From a bacterium (GTDB taxonomy: Bacteria; Patescibacteriota; Dojkabacteria; B142; OLB20): 64,000 nucleotides of DNA. The stretch spans positions 12,080 through 76,079 of the forward strand of contig JAJTYI010000002.1 in assembly GCA_021463645.1 (NCBI GenBank), given 5' to 3'. Below the pieces are notes generated by a model, which was not told where the DNA came from, made no database searches, and saw nothing but the letters and a program-made list of their open reading frames with translations. The translations under genes and the position numbers were made by a program. Within the stretch, counting starts at the first letter, position 1. The number at the start of each line of letters is the position of its first letter. This document shows positions 33,788-61,999 of the stretch, piece after piece.

Positions 33788-33825
33788 ATTCGGAATTTAT
33801 AGTTTAGGATTCAGAAATATAAGTT

Positions 33826-33980: not shown

Positions 33981-34000
33981 CGTACTGAATGCTGAATATT

Positions 34001-35401: not shown

Positions 35402-35513
35402 AATTACAAATTGTTAACAAAATTTTGAGTATAGGAGTAATTAATATAAATAATATAGCCAATTGCTATTAAAATGAGAATTATTAAAATGATTGTTTTG
35501 TGATATTCTTTCA

Positions 35514-36140: not shown

Positions 36141-36243
36141 ATTTGTAATTATAGCATTTATTAATTCTTAAATTTTAATCTTTAATAATTCTTGCAGTGA
36201 TTTTTTTTCTGGCGCATAATGTTATTTCACAAAAGGTAATTTT

Positions 36244-46665: not shown

Positions 46666-48861
46666 TTATACTATCTTTATTACGTATAGACCAAATCTTG
46701 CTCTTGTCATAGCCTCGTAATTTATCATTTTATCGTCATCCGAGATATTCTTATTGTGTTGGATATAAATGACAATATCTGCTTCTAAACCTTTGTATGC
46801 ATGTACGGTAAAATGATCTATATTCTTAGAAATTTTTAATTGTTCAAGATTTAGTATATCTTTCTCGCTTAGAAACTTTTCAAATCTACGATCAGATAAA
46901 ATTACTGTAGATACATCTTCGGCTTGTTCAATGCCAACTTCTTTTATTAATTCTTGAATCTCTTTAACTACTAGGTTTTTGTTGTTTACATTCAATATGT
47001 CTGTAAAATTCGTGGTTAATATCTTTGAGTAGTCTATAATCCTCATTTCAGGGCAAATGTCTTCAATAAATTGATGTATTCCTAGACTATTTCTGTAATT
47101 ATTAAATAAAAAATAAATATCTAGCTCTTTCAATGTTCGATTCATATCTAAACCTTCACCCAGCCTTCTGTAGTATTCTTCAACAAAATCTCTTCCAAAA
47201 ATATTCTGAGTTTCATCAGCGGCCAAAAGTATGCTACCTTTATCTGTAAGAAATTTATCAAGAATTAATTCGATCCAATTGAATTCAAAGTCTTGTGCCT
47301 CGTCGATAATAATCAAATCATATGTCTTGGCAATTTCTTCTATCGACTCAAGATTTTTTAATTTAAAATCTTCTAGATTTACATTATCTGGGTTTAAACT
47401 CTTATCAAATTGGTGAACATTGAATATTTCAACATTATTAAAATCTCCAACCTGGTTGTGTATATCATCCGCAAGCTTAGAGTTAAAACACAAATATAAG
47501 ATGTTTTCAAAAGAGTCTACACAATTTTGAATGGTTCTAATACAATGATATGTTTTTCCCGTTCCAGGACCACCTATAACTAAAGTATTAAGTTTTATAT
47601 TAAAATAATCTTTCTCTAATTCTGAATTATTTTTTTTATATGTATCCTTTTTAAAACTTTTTATCAACTTATAGTCCTTGTATCCCTTTGTAATTCCTAC
47701 TAACTCTTCAAAAGATCTTTGTATCATGTTTTTATTTAAGTTACTACTACCTCTCTTATTAAATATTTCTTCAACCTTTATTTCTAAATTTTCCGAAGTT
47801 ATGATATTATCATGCATCGACACATCCCCTCTTAGTTCTTCTTTTCTAGGAATCAAAACTGCTGTCTCATATATTAAATTATTCTTAATAGACGGTATTC
47901 TATGCTCTAAAAAATCGATGAGTGCTCTTTTATTTCTTTCCATTTGTTCGAATAGTTTACTCATACTTTCACCACTTTTATATGTAAGACTTCCATCGGA
48001 ACCGATTGTTAACGAACTCTTCACTTCAATAACAATGAATCCTTTGTCTAAATCAAAAAGTATTAAATCTATCTCGCCTAAATAACATTTATTATTTAAT
48101 TTAAAATCGTATGTTTTTGAATAGATTAGTCTATATTTATTTGATTTATCTAACACTTTTTCCTTTAATAAATACAAAGCGTTTGCTTCAGCTCTCCTTC
48201 CTGCATCTTCTCGTGTTGAGTCCGTCGATACTATTAAATCAACTTTATGAGGTATCAAATATTTAGATTCGACTATTTTTCTTTTTACCTTTATTGCTTT
48301 GCTTTCGGCTATCTTCTTATTTTCGATGTGATAATTTTCTATGCCATCCAATTTAGGCTTGTAGTATTTATTGACGAACTCAGGATCTTCCATTTTTAAA
48401 TTTTTAAATTCTTTCTCCATATCTTCCTTCTTATGTTTTTTCACTTCCTGTTTACCTTCTCGGAGTGCACCTTTAAATAAGTTTTTTAAATTTTTTTCAT
48501 CAATATAAAACCCACTAGATTTACTCTTAAAGTATTCATCTAGTAACTTACCTATGGCATAAGTTAAAGAAAATACAGTAGGAATGGTAGTAACAGCACC
48601 AAAGTAAGGGATAAACTTATATAGACCGATGGCTAATTGTTGTGCAAAAACCCCTATACCAACTATCCCCATTAGCTCCTTAATTATTTCTATTAATTCT
48701 TGTTCAGATAAATTTATTCCATGTGACTTTGCAATCTCTCGACCCATGAGAGCCTGTATAGGAGTTAATATAAAAATATCCGCAAATGGTATGGGTTGGA
48801 TAGCTACAATTGCACAGATAGAACTATATTTGATGATTGTGGATTGAGTATGTTTGTACAA
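46666..48861 (-). CDS. DUF697-like hydrophobic N-domain + NERD nuclease-related domain + SF1 (UvrD/AAA_30-like) helicase
   Basis: N-terminus AIVAIQPIPFADIFILTPIQALMGREIA plus a hydrophobic stretch. NERD core GEIDLILFDLDKGFIVIEVKS. Walker A VIGGPGTGKT, Walker B LIIIDEAQD, and C-terminal VHAYKGLEADIVIY..MTRARFGLYVI. Confidence 0.75.
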   Translation of the reverse strand: MYKHTQSTIIKYSSICAIVAIQPIPFADIFILTPIQALMGREIAKSHGINLSEQELIEIIKELMGIVGIGVFAQQLAIGLYKFIPYFGAVTTIPTVFSLTYAIGKLLDEYFKSKSSGFYIDEKNLKNLFKGALREGKQEVKKHKKEDMEKEFKNLKMEDPEFVNKYYKPKLDGIENYHIENKKIAESKAIKVKRKIVESKYLIPHKVDLIVSTDSTREDAGRRAEANALYLLKEKVLDKSNKYRLIYSKTYDFKLNNKCYLGEIDLILFDLDKGFIVIEVKSSLTIGSDGSLTYKSGESMSKLFEQMERNKRALIDFLEHRIPSIKNNLIYETAVLIPRKEELRGDVSMHDNIITSENLEIKVEEIFNKRGSSNLNKNMIQRSFEELVGITKGYKDYKLIKSFKKDTYKKNNSELEKDYFNIKLNTLVIGGPGTGKTYHCIRTIQNCVDSFENILYLCFNSKLADDIHNQVGDFNNVEIFNVHQFDKSLNPDNVNLEDFKLKNLESIEEIAKTYDLIIIDEAQDFEFNWIELILDKFLTDKGSILLAADETQNIFGRDFVEEYYRRLGEGLDMNRTLKELDIYFLFNNYRNSLGIHQFIEDICPEMRIIDYSKILTTNFTDILNVNNKNLVVKEIQELIKEVGIEQAEDVSTVILSDRRFEKFLSEKDILNLEQLKISKNIDHFTVHAYKGLEADIVIYIQHNKNISDDDKMINYEAMTRARFGLYVIKIV

Positions 48862-48890
48862 GATTTAGATATTTAACGTGATTTATTATA

Positions 48891-49826
48891 TTAAAGATCT
48901 CTCGAATTTTCTTCATATTCTTTATCCAGTATAGATTTGCTCTTGACCTTTTCCTTGTTATCGAAAGTTCTCCCAAATGCATCATATTTAGTTTTTGTGT
49001 ACTTATGTATCTTTTCTTTGTTGAAACCTTTTTTATTAAAACCTTCTCTATCATATCCTTGAATGTTGTAACCCTCACGGTCATACTCAGATTGAGTATA
49101 CTTATTGATTCCTTTAATATTAAATTTTCTTTTATCGAATCCTTTTCTATCGTAACCTAGTTTATTGTAACCTTTACTGTCAAAACCCTGACTGTCGAAT
49201 CCATCTTTGTTAAAACCAAATACGTTGAAACCTTCTTTATCATATCCCTCGAAATCAAATCCAAATTCATCAAAATTATTTCCCGTAACAAAATGGTTAC
49301 TTTTTTTGTTAAAACCATCTTTATTAAAACCTTTATGGTCATAGCCATCCTTATCAAAACCTTCTCTGTTATAACCATTTTTATCATAACCTCTTATATT
49401 AAATCCTTTGATATCAAACCCTTTTAGATCATACTTTTGTCTTGTTTTATAATGTAACCCAAATTTATCAAATCCAGATATATTTAAACCATTAATGTCC
49501 CAGACTTCTCCTTTAACTATTTGATCGTAAAAATCTAATATTTTTATATGTTTAGGATATACTTTAGATAATCTAAGTAATTCCTTTTTACTTTCTTCCC
49601 AATTGCCTAATTTCGCCTCTATCAATGCTTTAGCTGTTTTAGAACTGACTAGAAATTTATTTACAAATATTGATTTGTCATTAACTAGTTCTAATTCCGC
49701 AATAATCTCATTAAAAGTTTTCAGAGCTTCTTGGAATTCATTAATCTTATATTGGTGGTAGGCAAGTTTATAGAGTTGAAGGATCAACTCTTCGTCTAAA
49801 TTCTTTTTTGATTCTTTTTTACTCAC
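48891..49826 (-). CDS. TPR-like N-domain followed by about two dozen 5-residue G[FY][DN]xx repeats
   Basis: KGFDIKGFNIRGYDKNGYNREGFDKDGYDHKGFNKDGFNKK, FGFDFEGYDKEGFNVFGFNKDGFDSQGFDSKGYNKLGYDRKGFDKR and EGYNIQGYDREGFNKKGFNKE. The corresponding 15-nt DNA periodicity is visible at 49000-49450. Confidence 0.7.
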   Translation of the reverse strand: MSKKESKKNLDEELILQLYKLAYHQYKINEFQEALKTFNEIIAELELVNDKSIFVNKFLVSSKTAKALIEAKLGNWEESKKELLRLSKVYPKHIKILDFYDQIVKGEVWDINGLNISGFDKFGLHYKTRQKYDLKGFDIKGFNIRGYDKNGYNREGFDKDGYDHKGFNKDGFNKKSNHFVTGNNFDEFGFDFEGYDKEGFNVFGFNKDGFDSQGFDSKGYNKLGYDRKGFDKRKFNIKGINKYTQSEYDREGYNIQGYDREGFNKKGFNKEKIHKYTKTKYDAFGRTFDNKEKVKSKSILDKEYEENSRDL

Positions 49827-49860
49827 GAGAGTTATAAGCTAACCCCTTTTTGAACAAATT

Positions 49861-52593
49861 TTAAATCTTCTTCCATTGTTTCTTAAAATGTTCGACCTTG
49901 ATATATTCATCTAGAACATGAGAGCAGGATTCCCAGTTAAGGGCTTGAACCATTTTTGGATTTTCGTATTTTGATTCAAACGGACTCCTTTCAGGAACTG
50001 CATCTATAATCTTTTTTGCCTTCTCAATGTTATTTTGTGCAATTTCCACCCATACATCTTCAAGGACATCAGGTAATTGACCAAATATGCTTGTTATTGA
50101 TTTTAATCGTTCGGAAAGTATTGAGTGCACACGATCTTCTATTGAGTCTTTGTACCTCATATTATAAATCCATACTTCATCAAAACGTTGGCCAATCCTT
50201 TGGATTCTTCCTTTTCTTTGCTCAAGTCTTGTAGGATTCCACGGCAAGTCAATGTTAATTAATGCTCCAAGCGTTTGTAGGTTTAGTCCCTCACTAGCTG
50301 CATCTGTCCCAAATAGAATTTTTATTTCACCAGTCTTGACCATTTTTTTTAATTCATCCTTTGGACGCTTAACAAATTGTCCATCGATGAACATCCCGGA
50401 TTTATCTCCACCGGCATACAGGCCTATCTTCATGTCGGGGAAAATATTTTGCTTCACAAGTTTTTCGGCAAACCAGTATGCTGTATCAAAATACTGTGAG
50501 AATATTATGCAGCCTCGTTTTGCCCATTCGCTATCTTTAAGTAATTCTACTAATAAATTGAATTTTGGATCTTCATCGATTCGTTCTCGAATAATTGTGA
50601 TAAATTCCTGAAGTGCATTATATGCACTTTTATCAAGTTCAACTGCATCTTGGGGAATTAGTTCATCCTCATATAAATCGTCCTCTTTAGTAAAATCGTT
50701 CACTTTTTCTTCAATAGGCAAATCCGCCCCTTTATGCCCTTTCAATAGTTTCTCTGCAGTTACACTTCCGGCGAACATTGAACTACCAACTCTTTTTAGT
50801 AATAAGGAAGTAATAAATTTGCTATTTCGTTTTGATTTTGCTAGTTCTTGAGAAAATTCTTCTGCTTTTACATAGGCATCCTGTAAATAGGTAGGAAGGA
50901 CTATAGCCTCCGAATCTTTATCCCCAAAAAGCTGGACTTTAATTGGTGCCAAATAAGGTTCGTTTGTTGCAGGATTAATTGTCGTTTCAAGATATTTTCT
51001 TGTTCTCCGAACTATCTTACGAATAAACGGATTATGTTCATCAATGTATTTATCGCTTATTCTTTCAACAATGTTTTTTTGCAAAGGTTCCAACTCATTA
51101 AATGATTTATTCAGAATATGTTCTGAATCTGAAAGCTCAGCTGAGTCTCTTAAAATTCCAATGTTTTGAGGGTCCTCAAAACTATCTGGTAGGGGATTTC
51201 GCATCCAATCAAAAATCTCTTCAACACGATTCAGTTTTAATTCACCTGATAATAATTTCAAAGCCAAGGCTGGATTAGTTTGCCAATGACTGGCATATGA
51301 ACCTAAAATTTTTTCATCTCCCTGACTTAAGATGTTTAATAAGTCCCAAGCTTCAATAGGGTATAGCTGGATAGGAGTAGCTGTACCCATCAAAATATGT
51401 TCAGTTTTTCTGGCAATTTTAAGCAAGTAATTGTAAAGATTATTTGGTAGTGGTTTTTCGTACTCTTTATCCTTTCCTAGATTCTTTCTGCGGGCACGGT
51501 GGCATTCATCTACAATAATAGTATTATATTCAAGATCTAATAAAAGTTTAGAAGCGTCAGTATTTGCTGTAATAATTCCTTGGGAAATAATTCCAATTTT
51601 TCTTGGACATCTTTTTATATCAAGGGTGCTTTTTCCACCAAAAATGTTTTCTGATTCATCAACCCAACATTTACCGTCCCAAACAGCGGAAGGCAATCCC
51701 ATTAATGTATTTAATTCATCTTGCCATTGCCAGCAAAGAGTTTTTGGACAAATTATAAGCACTGGTTTTTCGCTGTGAAGGGATAATACTTGAGCTGATA
51801 AACCAAGCTGGATTGTCTTACCAAGGCCAACCATATCGGCTAATACATATCGGGCTTTAGAACCTGCTAACTGCGTTCGATAAACTAGATCAATAAAATA
51901 CTTTTGATGCTCCCAAAGCCCCAATTGTTGTCTGTAAACAGGTGATTCGACAACTGTTTCCTCCGGTCTAGAAATCCTTTCTATTTGATAAATGATTTTT
52001 CTTTCTGAAATCCTACGAATATCTTCAACTACGAAATCGATAATATTTCTAGCATTTTCGTTATTCCATAAAGCATCAAATTCATTTTGCACCCAGGAAA
52101 CAGCATCGTATGAATCATCTTCCCAAACTAATTCGTAATTTCTTTCCCAACCAGATTGACTCTCATTCATACTCCCCAAAAAAGAGGTTTGTTTCCCGTC
52201 GGGATAAGTAATAACTCCTGCTTTTCCGTGGACAAAACCAAAAACATCATCAGGCAGAACTTTGATCTCCAGTTTTCCCGATCTAATAAGTGCATAAAGC
52301 TTTTCTAATCTGTCCGGGAATTGAATATCCTGTTTCTCAGGTTGGCTTTCACACCAATCTTTTCGGAGTGCGGCTTCAAATGCTTTGATATTTCTAACAT
52401 CATCAATCTGCAAATGTGCATTACAAATTATTCTGATCTTTCCAGTTACCGAGTCTAATGCCTCTCCAGAGATATCAAAAAGCGAAGTGGAGAAATAACC
52501 GGCGATCCTATCGTAACTTTGTGCTCCAGAAAGTTTGGCACTTAGAAGCGAAGTATTTAATTTTTCTCTTCTTGAAGAAAATCTGTTTATCAT
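49861..52593 (-). CDS. PLD-family (HKD) nuclease domain fused to an SNF2-family helicase
   Basis: FVHGKAGVI....FLGSMNES (HxK..GSxN), LADMVGLGKT (motif I), IIVDECHRARR (DExH), GTATPIQ and EQRKGRIQRIGQ (motif VI). Confidence 0.85.
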   Translation of the reverse strand: MINRFSSRREKLNTSLLSAKLSGAQSYDRIAGYFSTSLFDISGEALDSVTGKIRIICNAHLQIDDVRNIKAFEAALRKDWCESQPEKQDIQFPDRLEKLYALIRSGKLEIKVLPDDVFGFVHGKAGVITYPDGKQTSFLGSMNESQSGWERNYELVWEDDSYDAVSWVQNEFDALWNNENARNIIDFVVEDIRRISERKIIYQIERISRPEETVVESPVYRQQLGLWEHQKYFIDLVYRTQLAGSKARYVLADMVGLGKTIQLGLSAQVLSLHSEKPVLIICPKTLCWQWQDELNTLMGLPSAVWDGKCWVDESENIFGGKSTLDIKRCPRKIGIISQGIITANTDASKLLLDLEYNTIIVDECHRARRKNLGKDKEYEKPLPNNLYNYLLKIARKTEHILMGTATPIQLYPIEAWDLLNILSQGDEKILGSYASHWQTNPALALKLLSGELKLNRVEEIFDWMRNPLPDSFEDPQNIGILRDSAELSDSEHILNKSFNELEPLQKNIVERISDKYIDEHNPFIRKIVRRTRKYLETTINPATNEPYLAPIKVQLFGDKDSEAIVLPTYLQDAYVKAEEFSQELAKSKRNSKFITSLLLKRVGSSMFAGSVTAEKLLKGHKGADLPIEEKVNDFTKEDDLYEDELIPQDAVELDKSAYNALQEFITIIRERIDEDPKFNLLVELLKDSEWAKRGCIIFSQYFDTAYWFAEKLVKQNIFPDMKIGLYAGGDKSGMFIDGQFVKRPKDELKKMVKTGEIKILFGTDAASEGLNLQTLGALINIDLPWNPTRLEQRKGRIQRIGQRFDEVWIYNMRYKDSIEDRVHSILSERLKSITSIFGQLPDVLEDVWVEIAQNNIEKAKKIIDAVPERSPFESKYENPKMVQALNWESCSHVLDEYIKVEHFKKQWKKI

Positions 52594-52595
52594 GA

Positions 52596-55496
52596 TTATA
52601 TTCCGTCATTCTCAACTAGACTTTGAATGTACTGTGCGTATCTGGCTGATTCTTGCCAATGCTCTGCACCTGTAATATTCTCAAGTGTGTTAATTAGTTT
52701 TAATATCTCAATTATTTTATTTCTACTATTCCAGTAATCAGGAACTTCGTTTCTTAACCAATTTTTCCCACTAACAGCATCTTCGTCTTTCACTGCTAAA
52801 TATATTGCCATTAGTATTTGTCGGACTAAACTTTTTGAAAAACTTTCGGCATTATTTAGTAATTTATTTGAAAATTCAATTGGAGTTTTTAACCTGGCAT
52901 TATTTGCCTTAGTAGAAGCAAGTAAGAGGGTATAGTCAGATACCCCTAGTCCTCTTGCTAATTCCTGATATGCAGATAAAGCAAACGCGCCAGATTTTTC
53001 AAATTCTAAACCTTTAATATAATACTTTTCTTCTTTGCTTAAATCTTTCCAGACATTTTTTGAGATACCCTTAGGGATAAGGTAATCATATGCAACTTTA
53101 ATTGCTGACTCGATAATAAGTTGAATAGGGCTTTTAGCATTCTTATCACGCTTACGTGAAATTTCATATTCAACATCAATATCTCCAATTTTCTTATATT
53201 TAGTGAGCACTTTAAGGGAAGCTGCATAAGCGGCTAATAAATAATCATTATCTGTAAAGTCGGGTTCATCCTGATCATCTAAAGCATGCATAGAATCAAT
53301 TTGAGCTTTAACCTCATCTTTTATTTCCGGATAGATGTCATCGAGCCAACCATTCAGATTGGAATTGTTTTTTCTTAAAACTAATAACACTGTGCCTTTA
53401 ACGTAGTTTCCGGACTTCAAGCCACCTGACTCTGTTTCTGTAGCGATATTCCAAGCAGCAGTAACCTGTAAACCAGCCGACCAAAGAATTAATGATAATT
53501 CTGCCCAGACTGCAGGGTCTTGATGTGTGAACATAACTATCTGCATACCATCATCAGGCATATGGTTGGTTAGATTGCGATAGACATCAATCATAGCTTT
53601 CGTGAAGTTTTCGTCGTTACCTTTTACAGCATCTTTTCTTTTACTTTCGGTATACCATTCTGGGAAAGCCTTTTTAATTAATGTCTTGTTCCAGGCTAAA
53701 AAGAATTCAGAAAGTTCATGATAATTTACAGCGTCTGCGTACGGTGGGTCAGTAATCCATAAGTTGGAATTATAATTGATTACTCTTGCGTCACATGTAT
53801 TTACTTTCCCTTCCAATGCTTCTTTAGTATTTGAGAAATTTAAGAACCAAGCCGAGTCAAGATTGGACGTGGCTTTGCAGCCATATACGTAAAGTGTGTT
53901 TAAAGCTTGGTTAGAAAATGTATTTTGCGTATGCTCTTGGTTTGCACCATTATTCCATATACACAAACGGCTATTCCAATCCGCTATTTTATTTATTCCT
54001 AAAATCCCTGTTACAAATTCCTTTTTGTTACTAGCTAGAGTTTGAATAGTTTCACTTATTATTCCTAGCAATAGTAACTGTCTTGGATTAAATAATTGAT
54101 GCCAGTATTGCCAACCCCTTTCTCTAATTGGTTGATCTGTATTATATCCTGACTCAATCCTATCAGATGGTATATAACCTTTATCTTGCCACTCACTAAA
54201 CTTATCTGCCAATAATTGATATACTTTTTGCTCACGCTTTAAATCTTCATCTGTAGGGGTTACATAATGCCTGATACCCTTTATCTTGTTATTTTCAAAA
54301 ATTGTTTCTTCGTATCTTATGCAATAAAGTCTTTCTTGGAAAATATCCGTTTCCCGAGGTGTAAACTCATTTTTCCCCCACATTCTTAAACCAAATTTTG
54401 TATTTCCGTTTTCATCTTTTTTGTCTTTTCTAATACTTGTTATTGGGGTTACAACTTTGCAATGTGAGCATTTTAATGAACTATCTTCAATTGTTCTATA
54501 CTTATCTGCATCTTTTAATTCTTGATTAGACACATCAGACTTTATTTCAATATCAAAAGATTTCTTTGTAGGATTTTCTTTTAGAATTGCGATTGTTTTG
54601 CTCCTTTTCCCAATTATCATTGAGGGGAAAAGTGGTATTAACCAATCGCAGGCAGGACATTTTATAAAATGTCCATAAATATAGGCTTTTGATCTCCATC
54701 CATTCTCATTCGTCTCGATCCCCCATTCCAATATTTGTTTATCAATAGCGTCATATACTTTCTTTTGAAAATTCTTTAGCTTTTTAATTTCCTCATCACT
54801 TGCCCCGTTGATATTGACAGCTGCCCACGTTAACAATGTTGCGATTGGGTTAAGGTCAGATGCATAGGCGTTTAAACCTAATCTTGCCGCCTCAAAAGGG
54901 ATGCTACCACCACCTGCAAAACAATCACCTAATGTTGTAATTTCTCCAAAGCGTTTAATGCTTAGTTGCTGAAATATTTCTTGAATATTAGTAGCTTCAA
55001 TACCCAGTTGGGAATTAATCTCTTCAATTGATTTATTTTTGATTTCAGTTATTTCTTCAGGCCTTACACAGTAAGTAATTTTTTTATCGTAGCTAAGTCT
55101 TGAGAATACAAGTTTCTGGACTTCATTTTTCTCTTTGTTTGAAATATCTGATTTCCACTTGATTTTGGTGTCCTGAGATACAAAATAATAGGCTCGTTCT
55201 TTATCTGTCAGATTGTCGTATAAATCTGAAATTGAAATACTCGCCTTTTTCCTTTCCCATAAACCTTCGTCATCCATTGTTAGAATTTTAAGGAAAATTT
55301 CTCGGTCTTTTTGAGGATTATTTGTTGCAGGTAGAAGCAATCCAAGAATTGCCGCCCTTACTAGAATAAGAGGTTTGCGCCCCCACCATTTACCAAGTCC
55401 AGTCAGTGTCTGCCCAGCTCCAGCCTTCCTCTCCTTATAACTTTCTTTTGAAATTTTTGAGACAGGGAACTGTACCTCAATAAATGATTTTTCCAT
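52596..55496 (-). CDS. DUF1156-type Zn-ribbon DNA methyltransferase (DPPY, N6-adenine/N4-cytosine class)
   Basis: N-terminal FPVSKISKES..GLGKWWGRKPLILVRAAILG. SAM motif DCFAGGGSIPFEAARLGLNAYASDLNPIA. Cys pairs CPACDW..CSHCKV. Catalytic ITDPPYADAVNY. Confidence 0.85.
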   Translation of the reverse strand: MEKSFIEVQFPVSKISKESYKERKAGAGQTLTGLGKWWGRKPLILVRAAILGLLLPATNNPQKDREIFLKILTMDDEGLWERKKASISISDLYDNLTDKERAYYFVSQDTKIKWKSDISNKEKNEVQKLVFSRLSYDKKITYCVRPEEITEIKNKSIEEINSQLGIEATNIQEIFQQLSIKRFGEITTLGDCFAGGGSIPFEAARLGLNAYASDLNPIATLLTWAAVNINGASDEEIKKLKNFQKKVYDAIDKQILEWGIETNENGWRSKAYIYGHFIKCPACDWLIPLFPSMIIGKRSKTIAILKENPTKKSFDIEIKSDVSNQELKDADKYRTIEDSSLKCSHCKVVTPITSIRKDKKDENGNTKFGLRMWGKNEFTPRETDIFQERLYCIRYEETIFENNKIKGIRHYVTPTDEDLKREQKVYQLLADKFSEWQDKGYIPSDRIESGYNTDQPIRERGWQYWHQLFNPRQLLLLGIISETIQTLASNKKEFVTGILGINKIADWNSRLCIWNNGANQEHTQNTFSNQALNTLYVYGCKATSNLDSAWFLNFSNTKEALEGKVNTCDARVINYNSNLWITDPPYADAVNYHELSEFFLAWNKTLIKKAFPEWYTESKRKDAVKGNDENFTKAMIDVYRNLTNHMPDDGMQIVMFTHQDPAVWAELSLILWSAGLQVTAAWNIATETESGGLKSGNYVKGTVLLVLRKNNSNLNGWLDDIYPEIKDEVKAQIDSMHALDDQDEPDFTDNDYLLAAYAASLKVLTKYKKIGDIDVEYEISRKRDKNAKSPIQLIIESAIKVAYDYLIPKGISKNVWKDLSKEEKYYIKGLEFEKSGAFALSAYQELARGLGVSDYTLLLASTKANNARLKTPIEFSNKLLNNAESFSKSLVRQILMAIYLAVKDEDAVSGKNWLRNEVPDYWNSRNKIIEILKLINTLENITGAEHWQESARYAQYIQSLVENDGI

Positions 55497-55498
55497 AT

Positions 55499-56074
55499 TT
55501 AAATATCTTCGTCATTCATATTAAAAAAAAGTGATTCACGCTTTTTGTCATCCAGCACGGGGTTTTCAGTAAGGGCATACCTGATTGCTTTTCTCCAGCC
55601 AAAGTTATCATCAACATTACCGCTAGTAGCGTTGGTCATTGTATAAAGCCACCATCGTTCTTCTGGTCTTAATCCTAACCAATTTTTTAATGCACTATCA
55701 ATGTTAGTGGGATCGCAATCTGCTATTACCCAAGCAATCAGAACTAGTTCTTTACCAAGTAACCTATGAACTGGTGTCTTGCCCATTACCCAAGTTCCTT
55801 TCTTGTACTTTTTTGCTTTTAATCTAGGATTGAATTCCCGGGCAATAGTAAATTTAATTTTTTCCCATTTTGAAACAGATAAGAGCACTTTAATTTTGTC
55901 ATGACGATAATCAATCACTTGTTCTCCTTCCAACCACTTTGCTCTTTCAAATATTCTTACTTCTTTGTCTTTATTTCGAGGTATCTCCACTAGAAAATGA
56001 AGTTGAGATTCTTCTGGTACAAATCCAAAACCTATTGATGTTAGTTTTTTATTTTTATTTTTGTTCAATATCAT
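55499..56074 (-). CDS. Small conserved partner protein (DUF3780-like by size and position)
   Basis: About 190 aa. It overlaps the stop of the upstream ATPase gene and ends 2 nt before the methyltransferase ATG. The domain assignment rests on synteny only. Confidence 0.45.
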   Translation of the reverse strand: MILNKNKNKKLTSIGFGFVPEESQLHFLVEIPRNKDKEVRIFERAKWLEGEQVIDYRHDKIKVLLSVSKWEKIKFTIAREFNPRLKAKKYKKGTWVMGKTPVHRLLGKELVLIAWVIADCDPTNIDSALKNWLGLRPEERWWLYTMTNATSGNVDDNFGWRKAIRYALTENPVLDDKKRESLFFNMNDEDI

Positions 56075-59000
56075 TTCGATCAACTTTGCTCAATGAAATA
56101 TTTTGCGCAGATAAGAACCTTTTAAAAGTTATACCATCTTCAAATGAAATTTTTCTTAATTCTAATGAGATTTCAATTTGGTCATTCTCATCTGCTACGT
56201 TACTTCTTATTTGTGACAAGATTTCTTTAAGCTTTTCCATATTTAAAGACATAGTCTCGGAAAAAGACAAACTAATCCAGTTAATTTTTCCGTTTATATT
56301 AAAGTTAATAGCATATGGCGTAACTTGTGCGTTTGACCTTTGTAATTCTTCTATCATACTATAGGTTTGGTTATTGTCTGATGTTGGTAGTTTTTGTTTA
56401 TAAACAACCGGTTTATGGTCGTCAATAACAAGTGGACCAGTTGTTTGAGGAACAGATATCTCCTCAATGTCACTTTGATCACCATCGATTATTGCAACTA
56501 CCCTTATATATTTTGTGCCATCTGGAATCTGAAATGGAGTATCATAAATCCCACCATTATCTCGGGGATCGCTACTGTCGGTAGTATATTTGATTTGTGC
56601 TCCACAATTCACCTGCAACTCAAGTGCCTGTCCGTCATGACCTTCAATAAATTTATAGGTTATTTTAAGAGGTGCTTTGAATAATTTAACTTCCCCGGTT
56701 TCGTGTTCACCCTTAGAATCTACACAAAGAAAGTAATTTTTATAATCTGTTATTGATAAGAAATCAGGATTTTCTACAAGTTTGGAACTTTGTGTAACAT
56801 TTTCATTTGAATCTAGATAGATTTTATCTCCATATTTTGCGATGACCTTGATAGCAGTCGCCTTAGTATCCTTGTCATAGTCTTTAACTTTGATATCAAT
56901 CCCAGTTGATTCCTTTGGGAAAGGTCCTTTTGAGATATATCCTCCATTATCTCTCCAATGACCTTCTTGTAATGCACTTATTTTCAAATCATCAAGCGCT
57001 CTAGGATGATGCCATGTCCAACGACAATTGCGTGCGGCCCTGTCTTTTAAATCTTCCCAACGTACTTCTGTTTCTGTTTCTCCAAATAACTTTTCTTCCA
57101 CCATTTTTCTGAAATTAGGATTGTTGATTTCGTTTGTAAATTTTCTTTCTTCTATCAGTAAGTTACAAATTTGCTCTTCAGGGTTAAAATCATTTCCTGA
57201 AAATTGGAATTTAATCTCTGCTTCTGCGAGGAAATCGCCACTCTCTTGATTTCGAGGAAAATATATTTTTATAAAAGTCTCTCTTATCGCAGAATTAATA
57301 CTTAGACGAATTTTATCTTGTTTATCAATTGCTTTTTTATACTGTGGATCTGATTCTAAAACGCGGTCAGATAGCATTTGTTCAATAATTGACTTTATAC
57401 CTTTGTACTCTTTAAAAACTTTAGTTAAGTTTTCCCATGTTTGCCTTTCACCGGATAGAAACAAGAATCTGTTTTTGAATGGATGATCGTTCCAATACTC
57501 CATAAGTTCTACCGCTAAACCTGTTTGAATGGTACTAGGTTCTGTTACTAACAAAGTAACATCTTTGGAATTGATTTCTATTTCATCAACTGCGGGGAAA
57601 ACAACAACTTTATGATACACATCTTTCTTTATAGGTTTAAGTTCTTCGTTTAAGTAAGCACGAATCTCTTTTTTTGCACTTTCATCATCAAAACTATCTA
57701 CTAATTCTTTAAGTCTTGCAATAAGGTTTTGCTGGTTTTGGAAGAAAAATTTTCCATCTTTGTCTCTTGCTAAATACCATGCGCCTTGGTCTAAGTGGTC
57801 AATAGCCGTTTTAAGATCAGTCACTTTTGTTTCTGGAGTGACTACATAATCGATAATCTCATTTAGGTGCAGTCCTTTAATACCTCCTGCAGTATTTGAA
57901 AGTGAAGATATTAAAATTAGTTTGGCAACACTACTAACATCGCTAGTTTTTAGATTATCATCAGCAATTTCAGCAATTGAATCACCTTGGTCAGCTATAT
58001 CATGTTTTATAGCACTGACCAAGGTGTCATTCAGCTGTTCGATTGTAGTTCTAATCTTTGGATTGGAGAGGTTTATATTTTGAGGTGCAATTAATTCACC
58101 TTCAAAACTTGAATTGTATAGATCTTGCAACATCATTCTGACTAAGCGAATGACTCCCCTTGTCTGTTGAAAACCTTCGTTCTCTTTAAATCTATGATAT
58201 AGGTTTATAAAAGATGGATGGAATGGATAGGTTTTAATAATTTGAGTATAAATGGTAGTAGGATCAGTGGAGGTTAAACCGTTTTGCTTAGCTTCTTTTA
58301 ATACATCCTGATATTGTCTCGCGACTTTTTCTACTATATCCTTACTTGGTAATTTTTCAAATAGTTTAGTTTTCAAGATTTCTTCTAGGTCTCCGTCTGC
58401 TTTTACAGGGGTAAGATTTAATGAAACCCGATTCAATTCACCTCTGAGATTCTTTAATACTTCTTGAATAAGTTGACTACCTTCAGAGTAGCTACCAGCC
58501 AAGTCTGCAATGACTACCATCACATTAGATAATTCTTTCTGTTTGACAACATTAAATAGATTTGCCAATGCAATCCCCGTAACATTACTTAAGTCTGAGT
58601 TCCCAACACTAACAGCTTTAGCACTTACCAAGTAAGGTGGGAGCTCATCTATCAAAATTAATGTCGGAGCTCCTTTGAGCATTGTTTTCCAGGCTTCATC
58701 CCCTGGAGCTTTATATTGAGGGTTAAAATATTCTTTAAATTGTTCTTCTTTACCCAATTGTTTGGCCAGTTCTCCCCATAAGCCAAGAGGAGAATCGGTT
58801 TGTCTTCCTGAAAAACCAATTACCCTTACTTCACCTTGGAAACAATCTTTACCTAAAAATCTTTCTCTGAATTCTGGATGTTTTGCCAACAATCCTAAAG
58901 TAATCATACTGTGCGTTTTACCACCACCCATGTTTTGAGTTAATTTAACTATCCCTTTATCTTCTTTCCCCTCGAATCTTCCAAATGCCGTCTTTAATAG

Positions 59001-59150
59001 GATATTTATACCGTCTGTAAAATAACTCTCCGCAAAGAATCTCTCTGGCTCAATTTCGTTCTTTAATAGATTTAGGATTTCTAAAACATCGTCCTGGAGA
59101 TTATCATTTAATGCTGACTCTCTCACCTTACAATTTTCTATTAACTTCAT
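56055..59150 (-). CDS. DUF499-type P-loop ATPase (BrxC/PglY-like)
   Basis: ..ESYFTDGINILLKTAFGRFEGK..VKLTQNMGGGKTHSM (Walker A) and PTLILIDELPPY (Walker B); over 1000 aa. Confidence 0.85.
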   Translation of the reverse strand: MKLIENCKVRESALNDNLQDDVLEILNLLKNEIEPERFFAESYFTDGINILLKTAFGRFEGKEDKGIVKLTQNMGGGKTHSMITLGLLAKHPEFRERFLGKDCFQGEVRVIGFSGRQTDSPLGLWGELAKQLGKEEQFKEYFNPQYKAPGDEAWKTMLKGAPTLILIDELPPYLVSAKAVSVGNSDLSNVTGIALANLFNVVKQKELSNVMVVIADLAGSYSEGSQLIQEVLKNLRGELNRVSLNLTPVKADGDLEEILKTKLFEKLPSKDIVEKVARQYQDVLKEAKQNGLTSTDPTTIYTQIIKTYPFHPSFINLYHRFKENEGFQQTRGVIRLVRMMLQDLYNSSFEGELIAPQNINLSNPKIRTTIEQLNDTLVSAIKHDIADQGDSIAEIADDNLKTSDVSSVAKLILISSLSNTAGGIKGLHLNEIIDYVVTPETKVTDLKTAIDHLDQGAWYLARDKDGKFFFQNQQNLIARLKELVDSFDDESAKKEIRAYLNEELKPIKKDVYHKVVVFPAVDEIEINSKDVTLLVTEPSTIQTGLAVELMEYWNDHPFKNRFLFLSGERQTWENLTKVFKEYKGIKSIIEQMLSDRVLESDPQYKKAIDKQDKIRLSINSAIRETFIKIYFPRNQESGDFLAEAEIKFQFSGNDFNPEEQICNLLIEERKFTNEINNPNFRKMVEEKLFGETETEVRWEDLKDRAARNCRWTWHHPRALDDLKISALQEGHWRDNGGYISKGPFPKESTGIDIKVKDYDKDTKATAIKVIAKYGDKIYLDSNENVTQSSKLVENPDFLSITDYKNYFLCVDSKGEHETGEVKLFKAPLKITYKFIEGHDGQALELQVNCGAQIKYTTDSSDPRDNGGIYDTPFQIPDGTKYIRVVAIIDGDQSDIEEISVPQTTGPLVIDDHKPVVYKQKLPTSDNNQTYSMIEELQRSNAQVTPYAINFNINGKINWISLSFSETMSLNMEKLKEILSQIRSNVADENDQIEISLELRKISFEDGITFKRFLSAQNISLSKVDRNDIEQK

Positions 59151-59240
59151 AGTTATTAGTAATTAATTATTATTTTAGTTTCCCAATAAGATTATATATC
59201 AAATTGGATGTATTATATTACATGATGAAATGAATCTACT

Positions 59241-60968
59241 TCATACATCCAAATTCCATACTTTTATAGCATTTTCGTATAGTTCATTTGCTCTTTCTCT
59301 AATATCTGACTCACTCCATGATTCCCTCTGTAAATATTTGCTAAATATTTCAACACCTTGTGCGTATTCCATTAAACCTTTATTTGTCCCTACTCCAGAT
59401 TTCTTGGTTGACCAATCTGCATCTCTTATGGACGAATTCAAATTACTTGTTATTAAGGTGAGGTTACCTAATGTATATAAAATCCTATCCCGCTCTCTTT
59501 TATCCTCTTCCGAAAGAAATGTACTGTCCCAGTTGTTTCTCCACTTCTTTGGTAAAACATGTTCAACGCTATAATCTTTAAAGTTTTTCAACTGAGTTGC
59601 GTTAAAGTTATTTCTTGTAGTTAATTCTATCAAGTACAAAATCCCCTTTGAAAGTTTATTACTCAAGGTAGATTCGGCGAAGCCTTTTGCGACTTCTACA
59701 TCCGATGGCATAAAGTTAATCTTTTCTGATTTATCCTCGATAAATTCAATTAACTTATCTAATGTATTAATTTCTCTATTTATCATCGAGCCATTAAATA
59801 GTTGGTTATAATTTTTATTATTGGTTCTACAAATCAGCCTTCTCATCAAATAGGCTTCTAAATACTTGAATATCCTATTTCTCTCTGTTTCATCTTTAAC
59901 ATTTTTAGTTATATATAGGATATATGGTATTAATGTTGTGGTTTCTAATCCGAATATTAACAAGTTCAGTCTGTCCACATTACTGTCTCTATCAACAAAT
60001 TCCTGAGATATATTTGGGTTAAATGTGTTTTTATATACTTGAGCGTAATCTTTTAACTTTAAAATTAATTCATCCTTATTAATTTTATAATTTGTTATAA
60101 ATTCTTTATAAGAATTGAAAACTGACTCTACTTTGAAAAATCGTTCTTTATCTTCAGAAGTTACATTTAAAGGGGTTTCCTGGATTTTGATAGATAAATA
60201 GGATTGTAAGAACAAATCAATATTAGTCCTTTTTACCCTTCCGGCATTAATCTCCTTCCCCCAGTAAGAAATGATATCATCTTCAGCTTCAAAAATTTCT
60301 TTCCAGTTTTTATTGTATGAATCAATATCTTCGTTAAATAAATAATTTTTGAGTAATTCAGCTGTAGTTAGTGAAACACCTAAAGAGTTAATAGTATCAA
60401 AAATTTGTTGTTCATCCTCTTTCGATTGCAAATCTATGCCTACGAACATGATGTTACTAAGCAGATTATTGTGAGACAATGAATTTTCCTGAATATTATC
60501 GAGAAAGTATTTATAGCACTTGTAAATTCTTTTTTCTTTCGTTTTTTCATCCATCTCATCCATGTCATTGATTTTATCTTTTAGTATTTTTTCAAACAAA
60601 GGTTTATCTATAAAATTGTGTTGTAAAATTAAATTCCCATGATATGAGTGGAAATTGGTTTTGAAATCATCAGGGACACCATTTTTCAGAAAAAGGACTT
60701 TAAAAAATAGGAGTAAAGTAGTTAACCTCTGCTGACCATCAACAATTTCTCTTACATCACGCTCAATCTCATGTGTAGCAGTTTCAATTTGTTTAAAAAT
60801 TACTGAACCCATAAAATATGGTGAATTTGAACGCGAAACATAATCCATGTCCTCAAGGAATCTCTCCCACTGATTAGTATTCCATACATAGGATCTTTGA
60901 AAAAATGGAACCTTAAGTATCGTTCCACGACTCAAAACATCTGATATTTTTCTTTTTCCTGCTTCCAT
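59241..60968 (-). CDS. GmrSD-like DUF262 + DUF1524 protein (type IV restriction-like)
   Basis: FQRSYVWNTNQWERFLEDM and VDGQQRLTT (DUF262/ParB-like). C-terminal EHVLPKKW...LGNLTLITSNLNSSI (His-Me/HNH-like DUF1524). Confidence 0.85.
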   Translation of the reverse strand: MEAGKRKISDVLSRGTILKVPFFQRSYVWNTNQWERFLEDMDYVSRSNSPYFMGSVIFKQIETATHEIERDVREIVDGQQRLTTLLLFFKVLFLKNGVPDDFKTNFHSYHGNLILQHNFIDKPLFEKILKDKINDMDEMDEKTKEKRIYKCYKYFLDNIQENSLSHNNLLSNIMFVGIDLQSKEDEQQIFDTINSLGVSLTTAELLKNYLFNEDIDSYNKNWKEIFEAEDDIISYWGKEINAGRVKRTNIDLFLQSYLSIKIQETPLNVTSEDKERFFKVESVFNSYKEFITNYKINKDELILKLKDYAQVYKNTFNPNISQEFVDRDSNVDRLNLLIFGLETTTLIPYILYITKNVKDETERNRIFKYLEAYLMRRLICRTNNKNYNQLFNGSMINREINTLDKLIEFIEDKSEKINFMPSDVEVAKGFAESTLSNKLSKGILYLIELTTRNNFNATQLKNFKDYSVEHVLPKKWRNNWDSTFLSEEDKRERDRILYTLGNLTLITSNLNSSIRDADWSTKKSGVGTNKGLMEYAQGVEIFSKYLQRESWSESDIRERANELYENAIKVWNLDV

Positions 60969-61040
60969 GATAAATATTTATTAAGTATATTTAATTATGT
61001 TAGAGTATATACTAAACTTTGAATTAACCCCAACAAGCTT

Positions 61041-61150
61041 CCTTCCCAAATATAATTTCCAATCCCAAAATTCCTAAATCTATAAATTTTCCCTCCTCAT
61101 TTCTTAATTCCTCAATCCCTAAATCTCTAAATTCCTCAATTCCTTCACCT
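61041..61150 (-). repeat. Purine-rich post-stop motif, double copy E (overlaps the last codons of the Cas4-like gene)
   Basis: The sense strand reads GGAATTGAGGAATTTAGAGATTTAGGGATTGAGGAATTAAGAAATGAGGAGGGAAAATTTATAGATTTAGGAATTTTGGGATTGGAAATT. Confidence 0.6.
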
Positions 61151-61859: not shown

Positions 61860-61969
61860 GGTAGTGGTTTCTAGGTTGAAGTTGATTATACTATTAAATT
61901 ATTGCTATGGAAACAAGTTGTAAATATATATGGGAAATAAATTATTTCAATAAATATCTAAGTTTGTTG

Positions 61970-61975
61970 TATAAT
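61970..61975 (+). promoter_or_regulatory. Candidate -10 box (TGTTGTATAATC context)
   Basis: TATAAT lies 25 nt upstream of ATG 62000. It has the same 11-mer context as the tRNA-Gln locus promoter. Confidence 0.4.
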
Positions 61976-61999
61976 CCGAATAATAGTTAGTAATTAAAT

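What the first reader, a model, noticed from the sequence alone, without database searches (positions are those of the whole stretch)
49861..59150. BREX-like four-gene module without PglZ: DUF499 ATPase, small partner, DUF1156 methyltransferase, PLD-SNF2 helicase
Seen in the sequence:
- Four minus-strand genes are packed with overlaps or 2-nt gaps.
- The first is a protein of over 1000 aa with Walker A NMGGGKTHSM and Walker B LILIDELPPY. Its N-terminus resembles the DUF499 ATPase of BrxC/PglY.
- The second is a protein of about 190 aa.
- The third is a 966-aa protein with the DUF1156-type N-terminus (WWGRKPL), the SAM motif FAGGGSIPFEA, two Cys pairs and DPPY.
- The fourth is a 910-aa protein joining an HKD phospholipase-D-type nuclease motif to a complete SNF2 helicase core.

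Established knowledge: DUF499 ATPases are the BrxC/PglY component of BREX. A methylase plus helicase/nuclease is the logic of modification-dependent self/non-self discrimination. This gene neighbourhood has been noted computationally in defence islands.

Inference: this is a methylation-based anti-phage system distinct from named BREX and DISARM types. PglZ, BrxL, BrxA/B, DrmA and DrmB are all absent from the window. I know of no experimental characterisation, but I cannot verify that from here.
Basis: partly seen in the sequence, partly recalled or inferred. Interest (0 to 1): 0.8.

Follow-up and report, generated by a model that had tools for sequence, protein, structure and literature searches.

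The report
MANTIS (Gao_RL) methylation-restriction defence operon
The four genes are real and intact, but they are an ordinary, somewhat diverged copy of an anti-phage system that already has three names (Gao_RL, Type-2 BREX-related, MANTIS) and has been studied experimentally, here in a genome that looks like a candidate-phyla-radiation bacterium.

Summary
Four co-directional minus-strand genes at 49861-59150 encode a DUF499 AAA+ ATPase, a DUF3780 protein, a DUF1156 N6-adenine methyltransferase and an HKD(PLD)-SNF2 helicase-nuclease.

The claim of a new, uncharacterised system is not supported.
- NCBIfam has four "anti-phage" equivalog models for exactly this quartet. PADLOC has four full-length models for it.
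- Rakesh & Krishnan (NAR 2026) define it as the "Type-2 BREX-related system", found in 1120 taxa.
- Shaw et al. (bioRxiv, Sept 2026) rename Gao_RL/Gao_29 as MANTIS (MtsA-D). They show hemimethylation of asymmetric 6-bp sites by MtsABC and restriction requiring MtsABCD, favoured by inverted site pairs.

The order A-B-C-D recurs in 58 of 80 genome loci; 19 others are cut by contig ends. The residues mutated in the Pseudomonas system have conserved counterparts here.

What is particular to this copy:
- It is only 29-43% identical to the E. coli and Pseudomonas versions.
- It has no CopG/MtsR repressor gene.
- A GmrSD type IV enzyme lies 90 bp upstream, inside a roughly 20-kb defence island.
- The host appears related to Candidatus Dojkabacteria.

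Verdict: a new member of a known kind, of low interest.

The parts
56055..59150 (-). mtsA-like gene: DUF499 ORC/Cdc6-clade AAA+ ATPase, 1031 aa. Walker A is GGGKT (K78, followed by H80). Walker B is LILIDE (D168/E169). A FnIII-like module lies near residues 840-895, followed by a poorly conserved C-terminal tail.
   Evidence: ORF; translation. Pfam DUF499 1.5e-27, plus Fn3_assoc and CHB_HEX_C_1 at 840-895. PADLOC PDLC02192 1.1e-193 over 5-1030. NCBIfam NF042962 3.2e-232 but 773.6 bits, below the 1200-bit cut-off. Motif positions. The C-terminal 880-1031 is the least conserved part, with 0.18-0.24 identity to 64 homologues.
55499..56074 (-). mtsB-like gene: standalone DUF3780 protein, 191 aa from the ATG at 56074. 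The mechanical ORF starts at a TTG at 56083. This is the component that marks the Type-2 BR/MANTIS subtype.
   Evidence: Pfam DUF3780 1.5e-45. PADLOC PDLC02191 3.5e-44. NCBIfam NF042961 6.4e-46, 156.5 bits against a 200-bit cut-off. It was called as 191 aa on an identical contig. 2197 homologues have E<=1e-3. The AF2 model has pLDDT 85, four strands and five helices, and no PDB fold match with E<=0.001.
52596..55496 (-). mtsC-like gene: DUF1156 N-terminus plus an alpha-class N6-adenine DNA methyltransferase, 966 aa. Motif I is FAGGG at 193-197. Two Cys pairs lie at 280-283 and 343-346. Motif IV is DPPY at 583-586. By homology it is the specificity subunit for both methylation and restriction.
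   Evidence: Translation. Pfam DUF1156 5.2e-24. PADLOC PDLC02189 1e-278. NCBIfam NF042963 1356 bits, above the 1000-bit cut-off. Motif positions. The least conserved segments are aa 81-160 and 521-580.
49861..52593 (-). mtsD-like gene: N-terminal single-HKD (PLD-family) nuclease domain fused to a Swi2/Snf2 SF2 ATPase, 910 aa. Key residues are H122/K124, Walker A K259, and motifs DECH, TATP and QRKGRIQRIGQ. It is the predicted dimeric effector.
   Evidence: Translation. Pfam PLDc_2, SNF2-rel_dom, ResIII and Helicase_C. PADLOC PDLC02193 1.9e-230 over 1-907. NCBIfam NF042964 1196.7 bits, above the 1100-bit cut-off. H122 sits at the same position as the HGK motif in the E. coli and P. fluorescens homologues and as the catalytic H122 of P. 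aeruginosa MtsD.
59151..59240 (-). 90-bp AT-rich spacer between the GmrSD stop codon and the mtsA-like start codon. It contains no ORF, so there is no MtsR/CopG repressor gene. It holds TATAAT-like -10 elements.
   Evidence: Sequence; small-ORF list. The promoter scan gave no minus-strand hit here, and hits across the scanned region were not above the shuffled expectation (44 found against 52.9 expected). Whether this spacer holds a promoter is therefore undecided.

Best explanation
This is an intact MANTIS system, also known as Gao_RL, Gao_29 or the Type-2 DUF499-centred BREX-related system. It is a four-protein, ATP-dependent restriction-modification-like defence.

The mechanism below is inferred by homology with the characterised Pseudomonas aeruginosa system; none of it was shown for this locus.
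1. The DUF1156 methyltransferase (MtsC-like) recognises a short asymmetric site and methylates one adenine on one strand only.
2. It cannot do this alone. The DUF499 AAA+ ATPase (MtsA-like) loads it onto DNA. The DUF3780 dimer (MtsB-like) stimulates methyl transfer. ATP hydrolysis by the ATPase allows turnover.
3. Unmethylated sites on incoming DNA, bound by the A-B-C assembly, license a dimer of the PLD-SNF2 protein (MtsD-like). Its two HKD halves form one nuclease site.
4. Restriction is strongest when unmodified sites occur as inverted pairs. This pattern fits ATP-driven translocation and collision.

Shown here: gene content, gene order, intact catalytic motifs, homology and conserved synteny. 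Inferred: the activities themselves. The recognition sequence is unknown.
For: Profile matches
- All four proteins match the dedicated full-length models: PADLOC PDLC02192, 02191, 02189 and 02193, and NCBIfam NF042962, 042961, 042963 and 042964. Two of the four NCBIfam matches are above the equivalog cut-offs.
- Matches to the Hma, DrmD and BrxH models are much weaker and partial.

Synteny
- The order A-B-C-D on one strand occurs in 58 of 80 genome loci recovered with DUF3780. Another 19 loci are truncated by contig ends.

Homology to annotated systems
- Alignments are collinear over the full length to the PGAP-annotated E. coli quartet (29/39/37/36% identity).
- The same holds for the P. fluorescens pG69 quartet (31/43/40/36%).

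Catalytic and structural features
- The residues mutated in P. aeruginosa (MtsA K80/E174, MtsC D621/Y624, MtsD H122/K260) have counterparts here: K78, E169, D583/Y586, H122 and K259.
- Motif I precedes motif IV by about 390 residues, against 380 in MtsC. This is the same alpha-class order.
- The DUF499 protein carries the FnIII-like module reported in 53% of Type-2 BR ATPases.
- The DUF3780 model has four strands and five helices and no PDB fold match. Both points agree with the published descriptions.

Literature
- Definitions and mechanism come from PMC12839542 and bioRxiv 10.64898/2026.09.23.753747.
Against: - The DUF499 and DUF3780 proteins score below the NCBIfam equivalog cut-offs: 773.6 against 1200 bits and 156.5 against 200 bits.
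- Identity to the proteobacterial systems nearest the characterised ones is only 29-43%. Details such as site length, orientation dependence and the requirement for MtsB could therefore differ.
- No methylome or phenotype data exist for this locus.
- Even in the model system MtsD nuclease activity has not been reconstituted in vitro, and the role of MtsB is unresolved.
- The optional repressor MtsR is absent here.
- I could not read Gao et al. 2020 itself. The equation with Gao_RL rests on the MANTIS preprint and on my recollection.
Confidence: 0.9

Rival explanations
1. The unit is larger than four genes. The GmrSD type IV enzyme (59241-60968) forms one operon with the MANTIS genes and works with them. 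The combination would cover both unmodified DNA (MANTIS) and hypermodified DNA (GmrSD).
For: - Only 90 bp separate GmrSD from the mtsA-like gene, on the same strand, with no terminator-like site between them.
- The GmrSD-A-B-C-D arrangement is present on a second public contig.
- PMC12839542 lists GmrSD-family ParB-HNH enzymes among the auxiliary effectors found next to BREX and BR loci.
Against: - The second contig is essentially the same strain, so it is not independent evidence.
- Only 1 of 80 genome loci (L069) has a GmrSD homologue within the flanks, and there it lies downstream.
- The closest relatives L001, L084 and L086 have different neighbours upstream of A.
- The MANTIS authors found no dependence on other systems.
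- GmrSD enzymes act alone (established knowledge).
Confidence: 0.08
2. It belongs to another DUF499/SNF2/methylase system: Hma (Type-1 BR), Type-3 BREX or DISARM.
For: The proteins give partial hits to HmaC (5e-60), HmaB (2.6e-35), HmaA (8.5e-37), DrmD (4e-45) and BrxHI/II (3e-36). All of these systems share an ATPase, an N6-MTase and an SNF2 helicase.
Against: - These hits cover only the shared cores and score 3- to 8-fold lower in bits than the dedicated models.
- DUF3780 is present, and the nuclease is an N-terminal HKD rather than a C-terminal PD-(D/E)XK. Both are the published Type-2 synapomorphies.
- No PglZ, DrmA, DrmB or DrmC was found in the window.
Confidence: 0.02
3. It is a categorically new, uncharacterised methylation-based system.
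For: - Two of the four proteins fall below the NCBIfam equivalog cut-offs.
- There is no solved-structure sequence match for A, B or C in the PDB copy.
Against: All the evidence listed for the best explanation applies. In addition, the closest public annotations already read "anti-phage-associated".
Confidence: 0.01

Closest known systems
MANTIS / Gao_RL (Gao_29) of Pseudomonas aeruginosa AZPAE15024 and E. coli (Shaw et al., bioRxiv 10.64898/2026.09.23.753747; Gao et al., Science 2020)
   Same: - Same four proteins in the same order: DUF499 AAA+, DUF3780, DUF1156 alpha-class N6A-MTase and HKD-SF2.
- Tight packing of the genes.
- Conserved Walker A/B, FxGxG, DPPY, HKD (H122) and helicase Walker A residues.
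- Full-length collinear alignments.
   Different: - Only 29-43% identity to the E. coli and P. fluorescens homologues.
- No CopG/Arc MtsR gene; E. coli and pG69 have one or a small upstream ORF.
- Short DUF3780 of 191 aa, against 366 aa in E. coli.
- Host is a CPR-like bacterium.
- Recognition site unknown.
Type-2 DUF499-centred BREX-Related (BR) system (Rakesh & Krishnan, NAR 2026, PMC12839542)
   Same: It meets every stated synapomorphy:
- a standalone DUF3780 gene inside the locus;
- an HKD domain at the helicase N-terminus;
- a DUF1156 N-terminal domain on the MTase;
- FnIII-like modules before the DUF499 C-terminus, the variant seen in 53% of taxa.
   Different: Nothing architectural. That paper's main text does not mention CPR/Patescibacteria hosts; its supplementary tables were not checked.
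Hma / Type-1 BR system (HmaA helicase-REase, HmaB DUF1156 MTase, HmaC DUF499 ATPase)
   Same: Homologous ATPase, MTase and Swi2/Snf2 cores, and the same RM-like logic.
   Different: Hma has no DUF3780. Its helicase has an N-terminal Tudor domain and a C-terminal PD-(D/E)XK nuclease rather than an N-terminal HKD. Hma models score much lower here.
SauUSI (type IV PLD-SF2 restriction enzyme, PDB 7CLG) and type III / ISP restriction-modification
   Same: A dimeric PLD nuclease coupled to an SF2 motor. There is a site-orientation preference on hemimethylated asymmetric sites.
   Different: SauUSI is autonomous and targets methylated DNA. Here the effector lacks its own target-recognition domain and is predicted to depend on the A-B-C complex. 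I did not run a structural comparison for the window protein.
Type-3 BREX (BrxC, PglXI, BrxHII, PglZ, BrxA, BrxF)
   Same: BrxC-like ATPase, related N6-MTase and related SNF2 helicase.
   Different: No PglZ, BrxA or BrxF is present. An explicit HKD nuclease effector is present instead.

Membership tests
MANTIS / Gao_RL / Type-2 BR | DUF499 ORC/Cdc6-type AAA+ ATPase with intact Walker A and Walker B (MtsA) | tested here: met
   Pfam DUF499 1.5e-27. PADLOC PDLC02192 1.1e-193 over the full length. GGGKT K78 and DE 168/169.
MANTIS / Gao_RL / Type-2 BR | Standalone DUF3780 gene inside the locus (MtsB), with the alpha+beta fold of four strands and five helices and no known structural relatives | tested here: met
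   Pfam DUF3780 1.5e-45. The gene lies between A and C. The AF2 model has pLDDT 85 with strands 26-31, 38-44, 60-66 and 98-102 plus five helices. The best Foldseek PDB E-value is 0.7.
MANTIS / Gao_RL / Type-2 BR | DUF1156 N-terminal domain plus alpha-class N6-adenine MTase (motif I FxGxG, a central region, then motif IV DPPY) | tested here: met
   DUF1156 5.2e-24. NF042963 1356 bits, above the 1000-bit cut-off. FAGGG at 193 and DPPY at 583.
MANTIS / Gao_RL / Type-2 BR | Effector with an N-terminal single HKD/PLD nuclease domain fused to a Swi2/Snf2 SF2 ATPase (MtsD) | tested here: met
   PLDc_2 at 21-176, and SNF2/ResIII/Helicase_C at 228-801. NF042964 1196.7 bits, above the 1100-bit cut-off. 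H122 and K259 are present.
MANTIS / Gao_RL / Type-2 BR | Conserved co-directional gene order A-B-C-D | tested here: met
   58 of 80 loci have all four genes in order. 19 are cut by contig ends. 3 have 0.7-1.5 kb after B with no MTase match.
MANTIS / Gao_RL / Type-2 BR | All four proteins reach NCBIfam's equivalog score cut-offs | tested here: inconclusive
   C and D pass. A (773.6 against 1200 bits) and B (156.5 against 200 bits) do not, although both align over the whole model. This points to a diverged lineage.
MANTIS / Gao_RL / Type-2 BR | Hemimethylation (m6A) of an asymmetric roughly 6-bp site that requires MtsA, MtsB and MtsC | not testable with these tools
   This needs long-read methylome data or expression. 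It is known only for the P. aeruginosa, E. coli and REBASE examples.
MANTIS / Gao_RL / Type-2 BR | Phage/plasmid restriction that requires all four proteins and both ATPase activities | not testable with these tools
   Shown for P. aeruginosa AZPAE15024 only.
MANTIS / Gao_RL / Type-2 BR | MtsR (Arc/CopG) repressor upstream; optional, present in "some" operons | tested here: not met
   There is a 90-bp gap with no ORF upstream of A. A CopG gene is present in E. coli. MtsR is not a defining feature.
Hma / Type-1 BR | Three-gene locus without DUF3780; helicase with an N-terminal Tudor domain and a C-terminal PD-(D/E)XK nuclease | tested here: not met
   DUF3780 is present. The HKD domain is at the N-terminus, and there is no PD-(D/E)XK match in the helicase.
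BREX (types 1-6) | PglZ alkaline-phosphatase-family protein together with BrxC and PglX | tested here: not met
   No PglZ, BrxA, BrxB or BrxL match appeared in any scanned ORF of the window.
DISARM | DrmA helicase, DrmB (DUF1998) and DrmC (PLD) with a DrmMI/MII methylase | tested here: not met
   Only partial DrmD and DrmA helicase-core hits fall on the PLD-SNF2 protein. There is no DUF1998 protein.

The most novel reading that the evidence does not exclude
A CPR (Dojkabacteria-like) lineage carries a diverged, MtsR-less MANTIS that is transcriptionally coupled to an upstream GmrSD type IV enzyme. Its effector gene undergoes allele-swapping recombination between strains. MANTIS would then be part of a compact, co-regulated two-mode restriction unit, covering unmodified and hypermodified DNA, in an ultra-small symbiont genome. 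Its site rules might also differ from those of the Pseudomonas model.
Probability: 0.12. Interest if true: 0.35.

Novelty: new member of a known kind. Interest (0 to 1): 0.15.

Why it matters
It matters little for discovery. The system type is already curated (NCBIfam, PADLOC), classified (Type-2 BR) and mechanistically studied (MANTIS).

The locus has modest value as a diverged, complete natural variant.
- It is 29-43% identical to the E. coli and P. fluorescens homologues of the studied systems.
- It comes from a candidate-phyla-radiation-like genome.
- It lacks the MtsR repressor.

Such a variant could be used to test three points:
- whether the requirement for DUF3780 and the inverted-site preference are general;
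- which parts of MtsC set specificity;
- how much of a very small genome is given over to defence. The last roughly 20 kb of this window hold MANTIS, GmrSD, a Cas4-like nuclease, a NERD-UvrD helicase and a PRTase-domain protein.

Tried and rejected
- PDB sequence searches. The A, B and C proteins found nothing, and D hit only generic SNF2/RapA cores. The MANTIS structures are not in the held copy, so no direct structural membership test was possible.
- Reading Gao et al. 2020. The paper is not held, by DOI or by a guessed PMC id. The Gao_RL link rests on the MANTIS preprint.
- Mapping the specificity region. The P. aeruginosa swap region, MtsC 444-527, was mapped through the pG69 homologue, assuming similar numbering. 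It lands at about window residues 396-490. The least conserved segments here are 81-160 and 521-580. I therefore do not claim which segment sets specificity, and I made no site prediction.
- Shared neighbourhood with the closest genome locus. L001 (a Ca. Paceibacterota MAG) has flanks unrelated to the window.
- Promoter and terminator scan of 48700-62200. Hits were no more frequent than in shuffled sequence, so operon boundaries are undecided.
- Unknown neighbours. Pfam, PADLOC and PHROGs scans of the 311-aa, 380-aa, 410-aa and small ORFs gave nothing beyond a weak TPR hit, an ArsR-type HTH and a receiver-like domain.
- Rfam. It found only the two tRNAs.
- Hma, BREX and DISARM membership was considered and rejected; see the membership tests.

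Full report

Yes. The ORF list gives four minus-strand ORFs.
- 56055-59150, 1031 aa.
- 55499-56083, 194 aa from a TTG start.
- 52596-55496, 966 aa.
- 49861-52593, 910 aa.

For the second gene, an ATG at 56074 gives 191 aa. That length is the one called on an identical public contig, and it fits the 187-190 aa of homologues. A and B overlap by 20 nt (29 nt with the TTG start). B/C and C/D are each separated by 2 nt.

- A: NMGGGKTHSM (K78) and LILIDELPPY (D168/E169).
- C: WWGRKPL (37), FAGGGSIPFEA (193), CPAC (280), CSHC (343) and DPPY (583).
- D: a single HKD motif, FVHGKAG (H122/K124), followed by the SNF2 motifs GLGKT (K259), DECH, TATP and QRKGRIQRIGQ.

Pfam recovers DUF499, DUF3780, DUF1156, PLDc_2, SNF2-rel_dom, ResIII and Helicase_C. 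It also finds an Fn3_assoc/CHB_HEX_C_1 module at residues 840-895 of the ATPase.

**2. What is it?**

PADLOC holds four dedicated full-length models, named DUF499, DUF3780, DUF1156_MTase and PLD_Helicase. They match at 1e-193, 3.5e-44, 1e-278 and 1.9e-230. The Hma, DrmD, BrxH and DpdE models hit only the shared cores, with far lower scores.

NCBIfam holds four equivalog models with "anti-phage" in their names.
- DUF1156 protein: 1356 bits against a cut-off of 1000. It passes.
- PLD protein: 1196.7 bits against 1100. It passes.
- DUF499 protein: 773.6 bits against 1200. It aligns end to end but falls short.
- DUF3780 protein: 156.5 bits against 200. It also aligns end to end but falls short.

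This is therefore a diverged member of a curated family.

PGAP already uses these four names on homologous loci.
- A P. fluorescens conjugative plasmid.
- The chromosome of an E. coli strain. The E. coli locus is preceded by a CopG ribbon-helix-helix gene.
- In total 49 of 5426 complete E. coli genomes match the pG69 methyltransferase gene. The ten records listed are annotated as the anti-phage-associated DUF1156 protein.

**3. Literature**

Rakesh & Krishnan (NAR 2026, PMC12839542) describe "DUF499-centred BREX-related systems" in 3592 taxa. Their Type-2 subtype, found in 1120 taxa, is defined by the following features.
- A standalone DUF3780 gene, present in 98% of taxa.
- A DUF1156 N-terminal domain on the N6-MTase.
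- In 53% of taxa, two FnIII-like domains before the C-terminus of the ATPase.

Type-1 in that scheme is the Hma system.

Shaw et al. [quoted passage not shown] They say it was tested for phage restriction by Gao et al. 2020, and they rename it MANTIS, with proteins MtsA-D. Their findings for the P. aeruginosa system are as follows.
- MtsC hemimethylates an asymmetric 6-bp site, CAACAC.
- Methylation needs MtsA (Walker A K80 and Walker B E174) and MtsB.
- Restriction needs all four proteins, including MtsD H122 (PLD) and K260 (helicase Walker A).
- Inverted pairs of unmodified sites are restricted best.
- MtsB is a dimer with no structural relatives.
- MtsD is a dimer with one composite PLD site and resembles SauUSI.
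- MtsD cleavage has not been reconstituted in vitro.
- An Arc/CopG repressor, MtsR, is present in some operons.

**4. Membership tests on this locus**

Synteny. A DUF3780 alignment recovered at least 592 genome stretches; the 80 best were fetched.
- 58 loci carry homologues of all four window proteins, co-directional and in the order A-B-C-D.
- 19 are cut by a contig end.
- 3 have 0.7-1.5 kb after DUF3780 with no MTase match.

Homology. The window proteins align collinearly over their full length to two annotated systems.
- The E. coli quartet, at 29/39/37/36% identity.
- The P. fluorescens quartet, at 31/43/40/36%.

Catalytic positions. They correspond closely: K78, E169, D583/Y586, H122 and K259 here, against K80, E174, D621/Y624, H122 and K260 in P. 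aeruginosa. The histidine after the Walker A lysine (H80 here) parallels the ATP-stacking H82 of MtsA.

DUF3780 fold. An AlphaFold2 model has mean pLDDT 85, four strands and five helices. It has no PDB fold match (best E-value 0.7). Both results agree with the published descriptions.

Tests not met. The locus fails the tests for Hma/Type-1 BR because DUF3780 is present and the nuclease is an N-terminal HKD. It fails BREX because there is no PglZ, and DISARM because there is no DrmA, DrmB or DrmC.

**5. How it most likely works**

This is inferred by homology and was not shown for this locus.
1. The MtsC-like enzyme reads an asymmetric site.
2. The DUF499 ATPase loads it on DNA.
3. The DUF3780 dimer stimulates methyl transfer, and ATP hydrolysis recycles the complex. 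The host genome becomes hemimethylated.
4. On unmodified incoming DNA, the site-bound A-B-C complex licenses the dimeric HKD-SNF2 motor-nuclease.
5. Cleavage is favoured when sites are in inverted orientation.

The recognition sequence cannot be derived here. Across 58 homologues the least conserved MTase segments are residues 81-160 and 521-580. The region equivalent to the P. aeruginosa swap segment maps to about 396-490, via the pG69 homologue and assuming similar numbering. I leave the specificity determinant open.

**6. What is particular to this copy**

- Host. The first 43 kb of the window are largely housekeeping genes: LepA, ThrRS, pyruvate kinase, iPGM, PGI, transaldolase, SOD and glycogen metabolism. 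The only named close relatives of its LepA are Candidatus Dojkabacteria, at 58-66% identity. The closest genome-derived copy of the system is in a Ca. Paceibacterota MAG, at 66-83% identity, with unrelated flanks. The main text of PMC12839542 does not mention CPR hosts.
- No MtsR. Only a 90-bp AT-rich spacer separates the ATPase gene from an upstream GmrSD type IV restriction gene.
- Defence island. It holds GmrSD (59241-60968), a Cas4-like PD-(D/E)XK protein (61119-61859), a NERD-UvrD helicase (46666-48861) with an unknown 311-aa partner, and an HTH-PRTase protein with a PsyrT-like match (43788-44777). GmrSD linkage is not conserved: only 1 of the 80 loci has it. I therefore treat GmrSD as a neighbour and not a component.

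**7. Verdict**

The domain-level interpretation and the inferred logic are right. The novelty claim is not: the module maps cleanly onto Gao_RL / Type-2 BR / MANTIS. This is a new, diverged member of a known and experimentally characterised kind. Interest is low (0.15).

Noticed in passing
window 50400-52400 (inside the PLD-SNF2 gene), compared with L083 9000-11000: A public contig (Logan SRR28996641) is almost identical to most of window 49464-61378, with 0-3 mismatches per 500 nt from GmrSD through the methyltransferase and somewhat more (6-20 per 500 nt) in the outer bins. The exception is a roughly 2-kb patch inside the effector gene with about 9-22% nucleotide divergence, where the protein is still 93% identical. 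It looks like an allele-swap recombination in mtsD between strains, or a strain-chimeric assembly.
   Followed up: partly
window 59241-60968 (-): A GmrSD-family type IV restriction enzyme (GmrSD_N 8.5e-36, GmrSD_C 3.1e-19) lies 90 bp upstream of the DUF499 gene on the same strand. The linkage is not conserved in other genomes: 1 of 80 loci has a GmrSD homologue.
   Followed up: partly
window 46666-49826 (-): A 731-aa NERD + UvrD/AAA_19 helicase has weak PADLOC hits to GajB and to the candidate 'NERD+UvrD' C3a187. It is preceded by a 311-aa protein with no family match apart from a sub-threshold TPR hit. The segment has lower G+C (0.30 against about 0.35). It may be a separate two-gene defence candidate.
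   Followed up: partly
window 61119-61859 (-) and L084 14816-17426: A Cas4-like PD-(D/E)XK protein lies upstream of GmrSD. In a close relative of the system (L084) a PD-(D/E)XK protein and a NERD/UvrD helicase directly follow the PLD-SNF2 gene. They are only 22-31% identical to the window's versions, so the domain types recur but the genes are not orthologous.
   Followed up: partly
window 43788-44777 (-): A 329-aa protein has an N-terminal HTH and a C-terminal phosphoribosyltransferase domain. Its PADLOC hits are PsyrT 8.5e-15, ShosT and PRTase_III-A. It marks the inner edge of the defence island and is a possible retron/Shosta-type effector relative.
   Followed up: no
L003, L015, L016, L022, L024, L025, L030, L042, L046, L054, L056, L057; also L082 9934-11391: In 12 of the 58 complete loci an extra 1-2 kb lies between the methyltransferase and the PLD-SNF2 gene. 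On the Desulfosarcina plasmid the insert is annotated as a 485-aa 'ATP-binding protein'. It may be a recurrent fifth gene of some MANTIS loci.
   Followed up: no
L088 4776-5876 and 11827-12696 (E. coli strain 3R): The E. coli version has a long DUF3780 protein (366 aa against 191 aa here), a CopG gene upstream and a 289-aa 'restriction endonuclease' directly after the PLD gene. The system is found in 49 of 5426 complete E. coli genomes.
   Followed up: partly
L086 1-6650 and 16516-18953: Another close relative of the system sits on what looks like a conjugative element, with a relaxase, ArdC and T4SS pilin genes. It lies next to a CBASS-like pair (CD-NTase plus Cap15) and a GmrSD_N-SLFN protein.
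   Followed up: no
window 1-43000: The housekeeping content and LepA similarity (named hits are only Candidatus Dojkabacteria, at 58-66%) suggest a candidate-phyla-radiation host. The glycogen-metabolism cluster at 27338-38265 (GT4/GT5, GH57, debranching enzyme, GH15, phosphorylase) is notable for such a genome.
   Followed up: partly
window 62773-63915 (-) and 41522-42754 (-): Two sizeable ORFs (380 aa and 410 aa) at the edges of the island have no match in Pfam, NCBIfam (380 aa only), PADLOC or PHROGs.
   Followed up: partly
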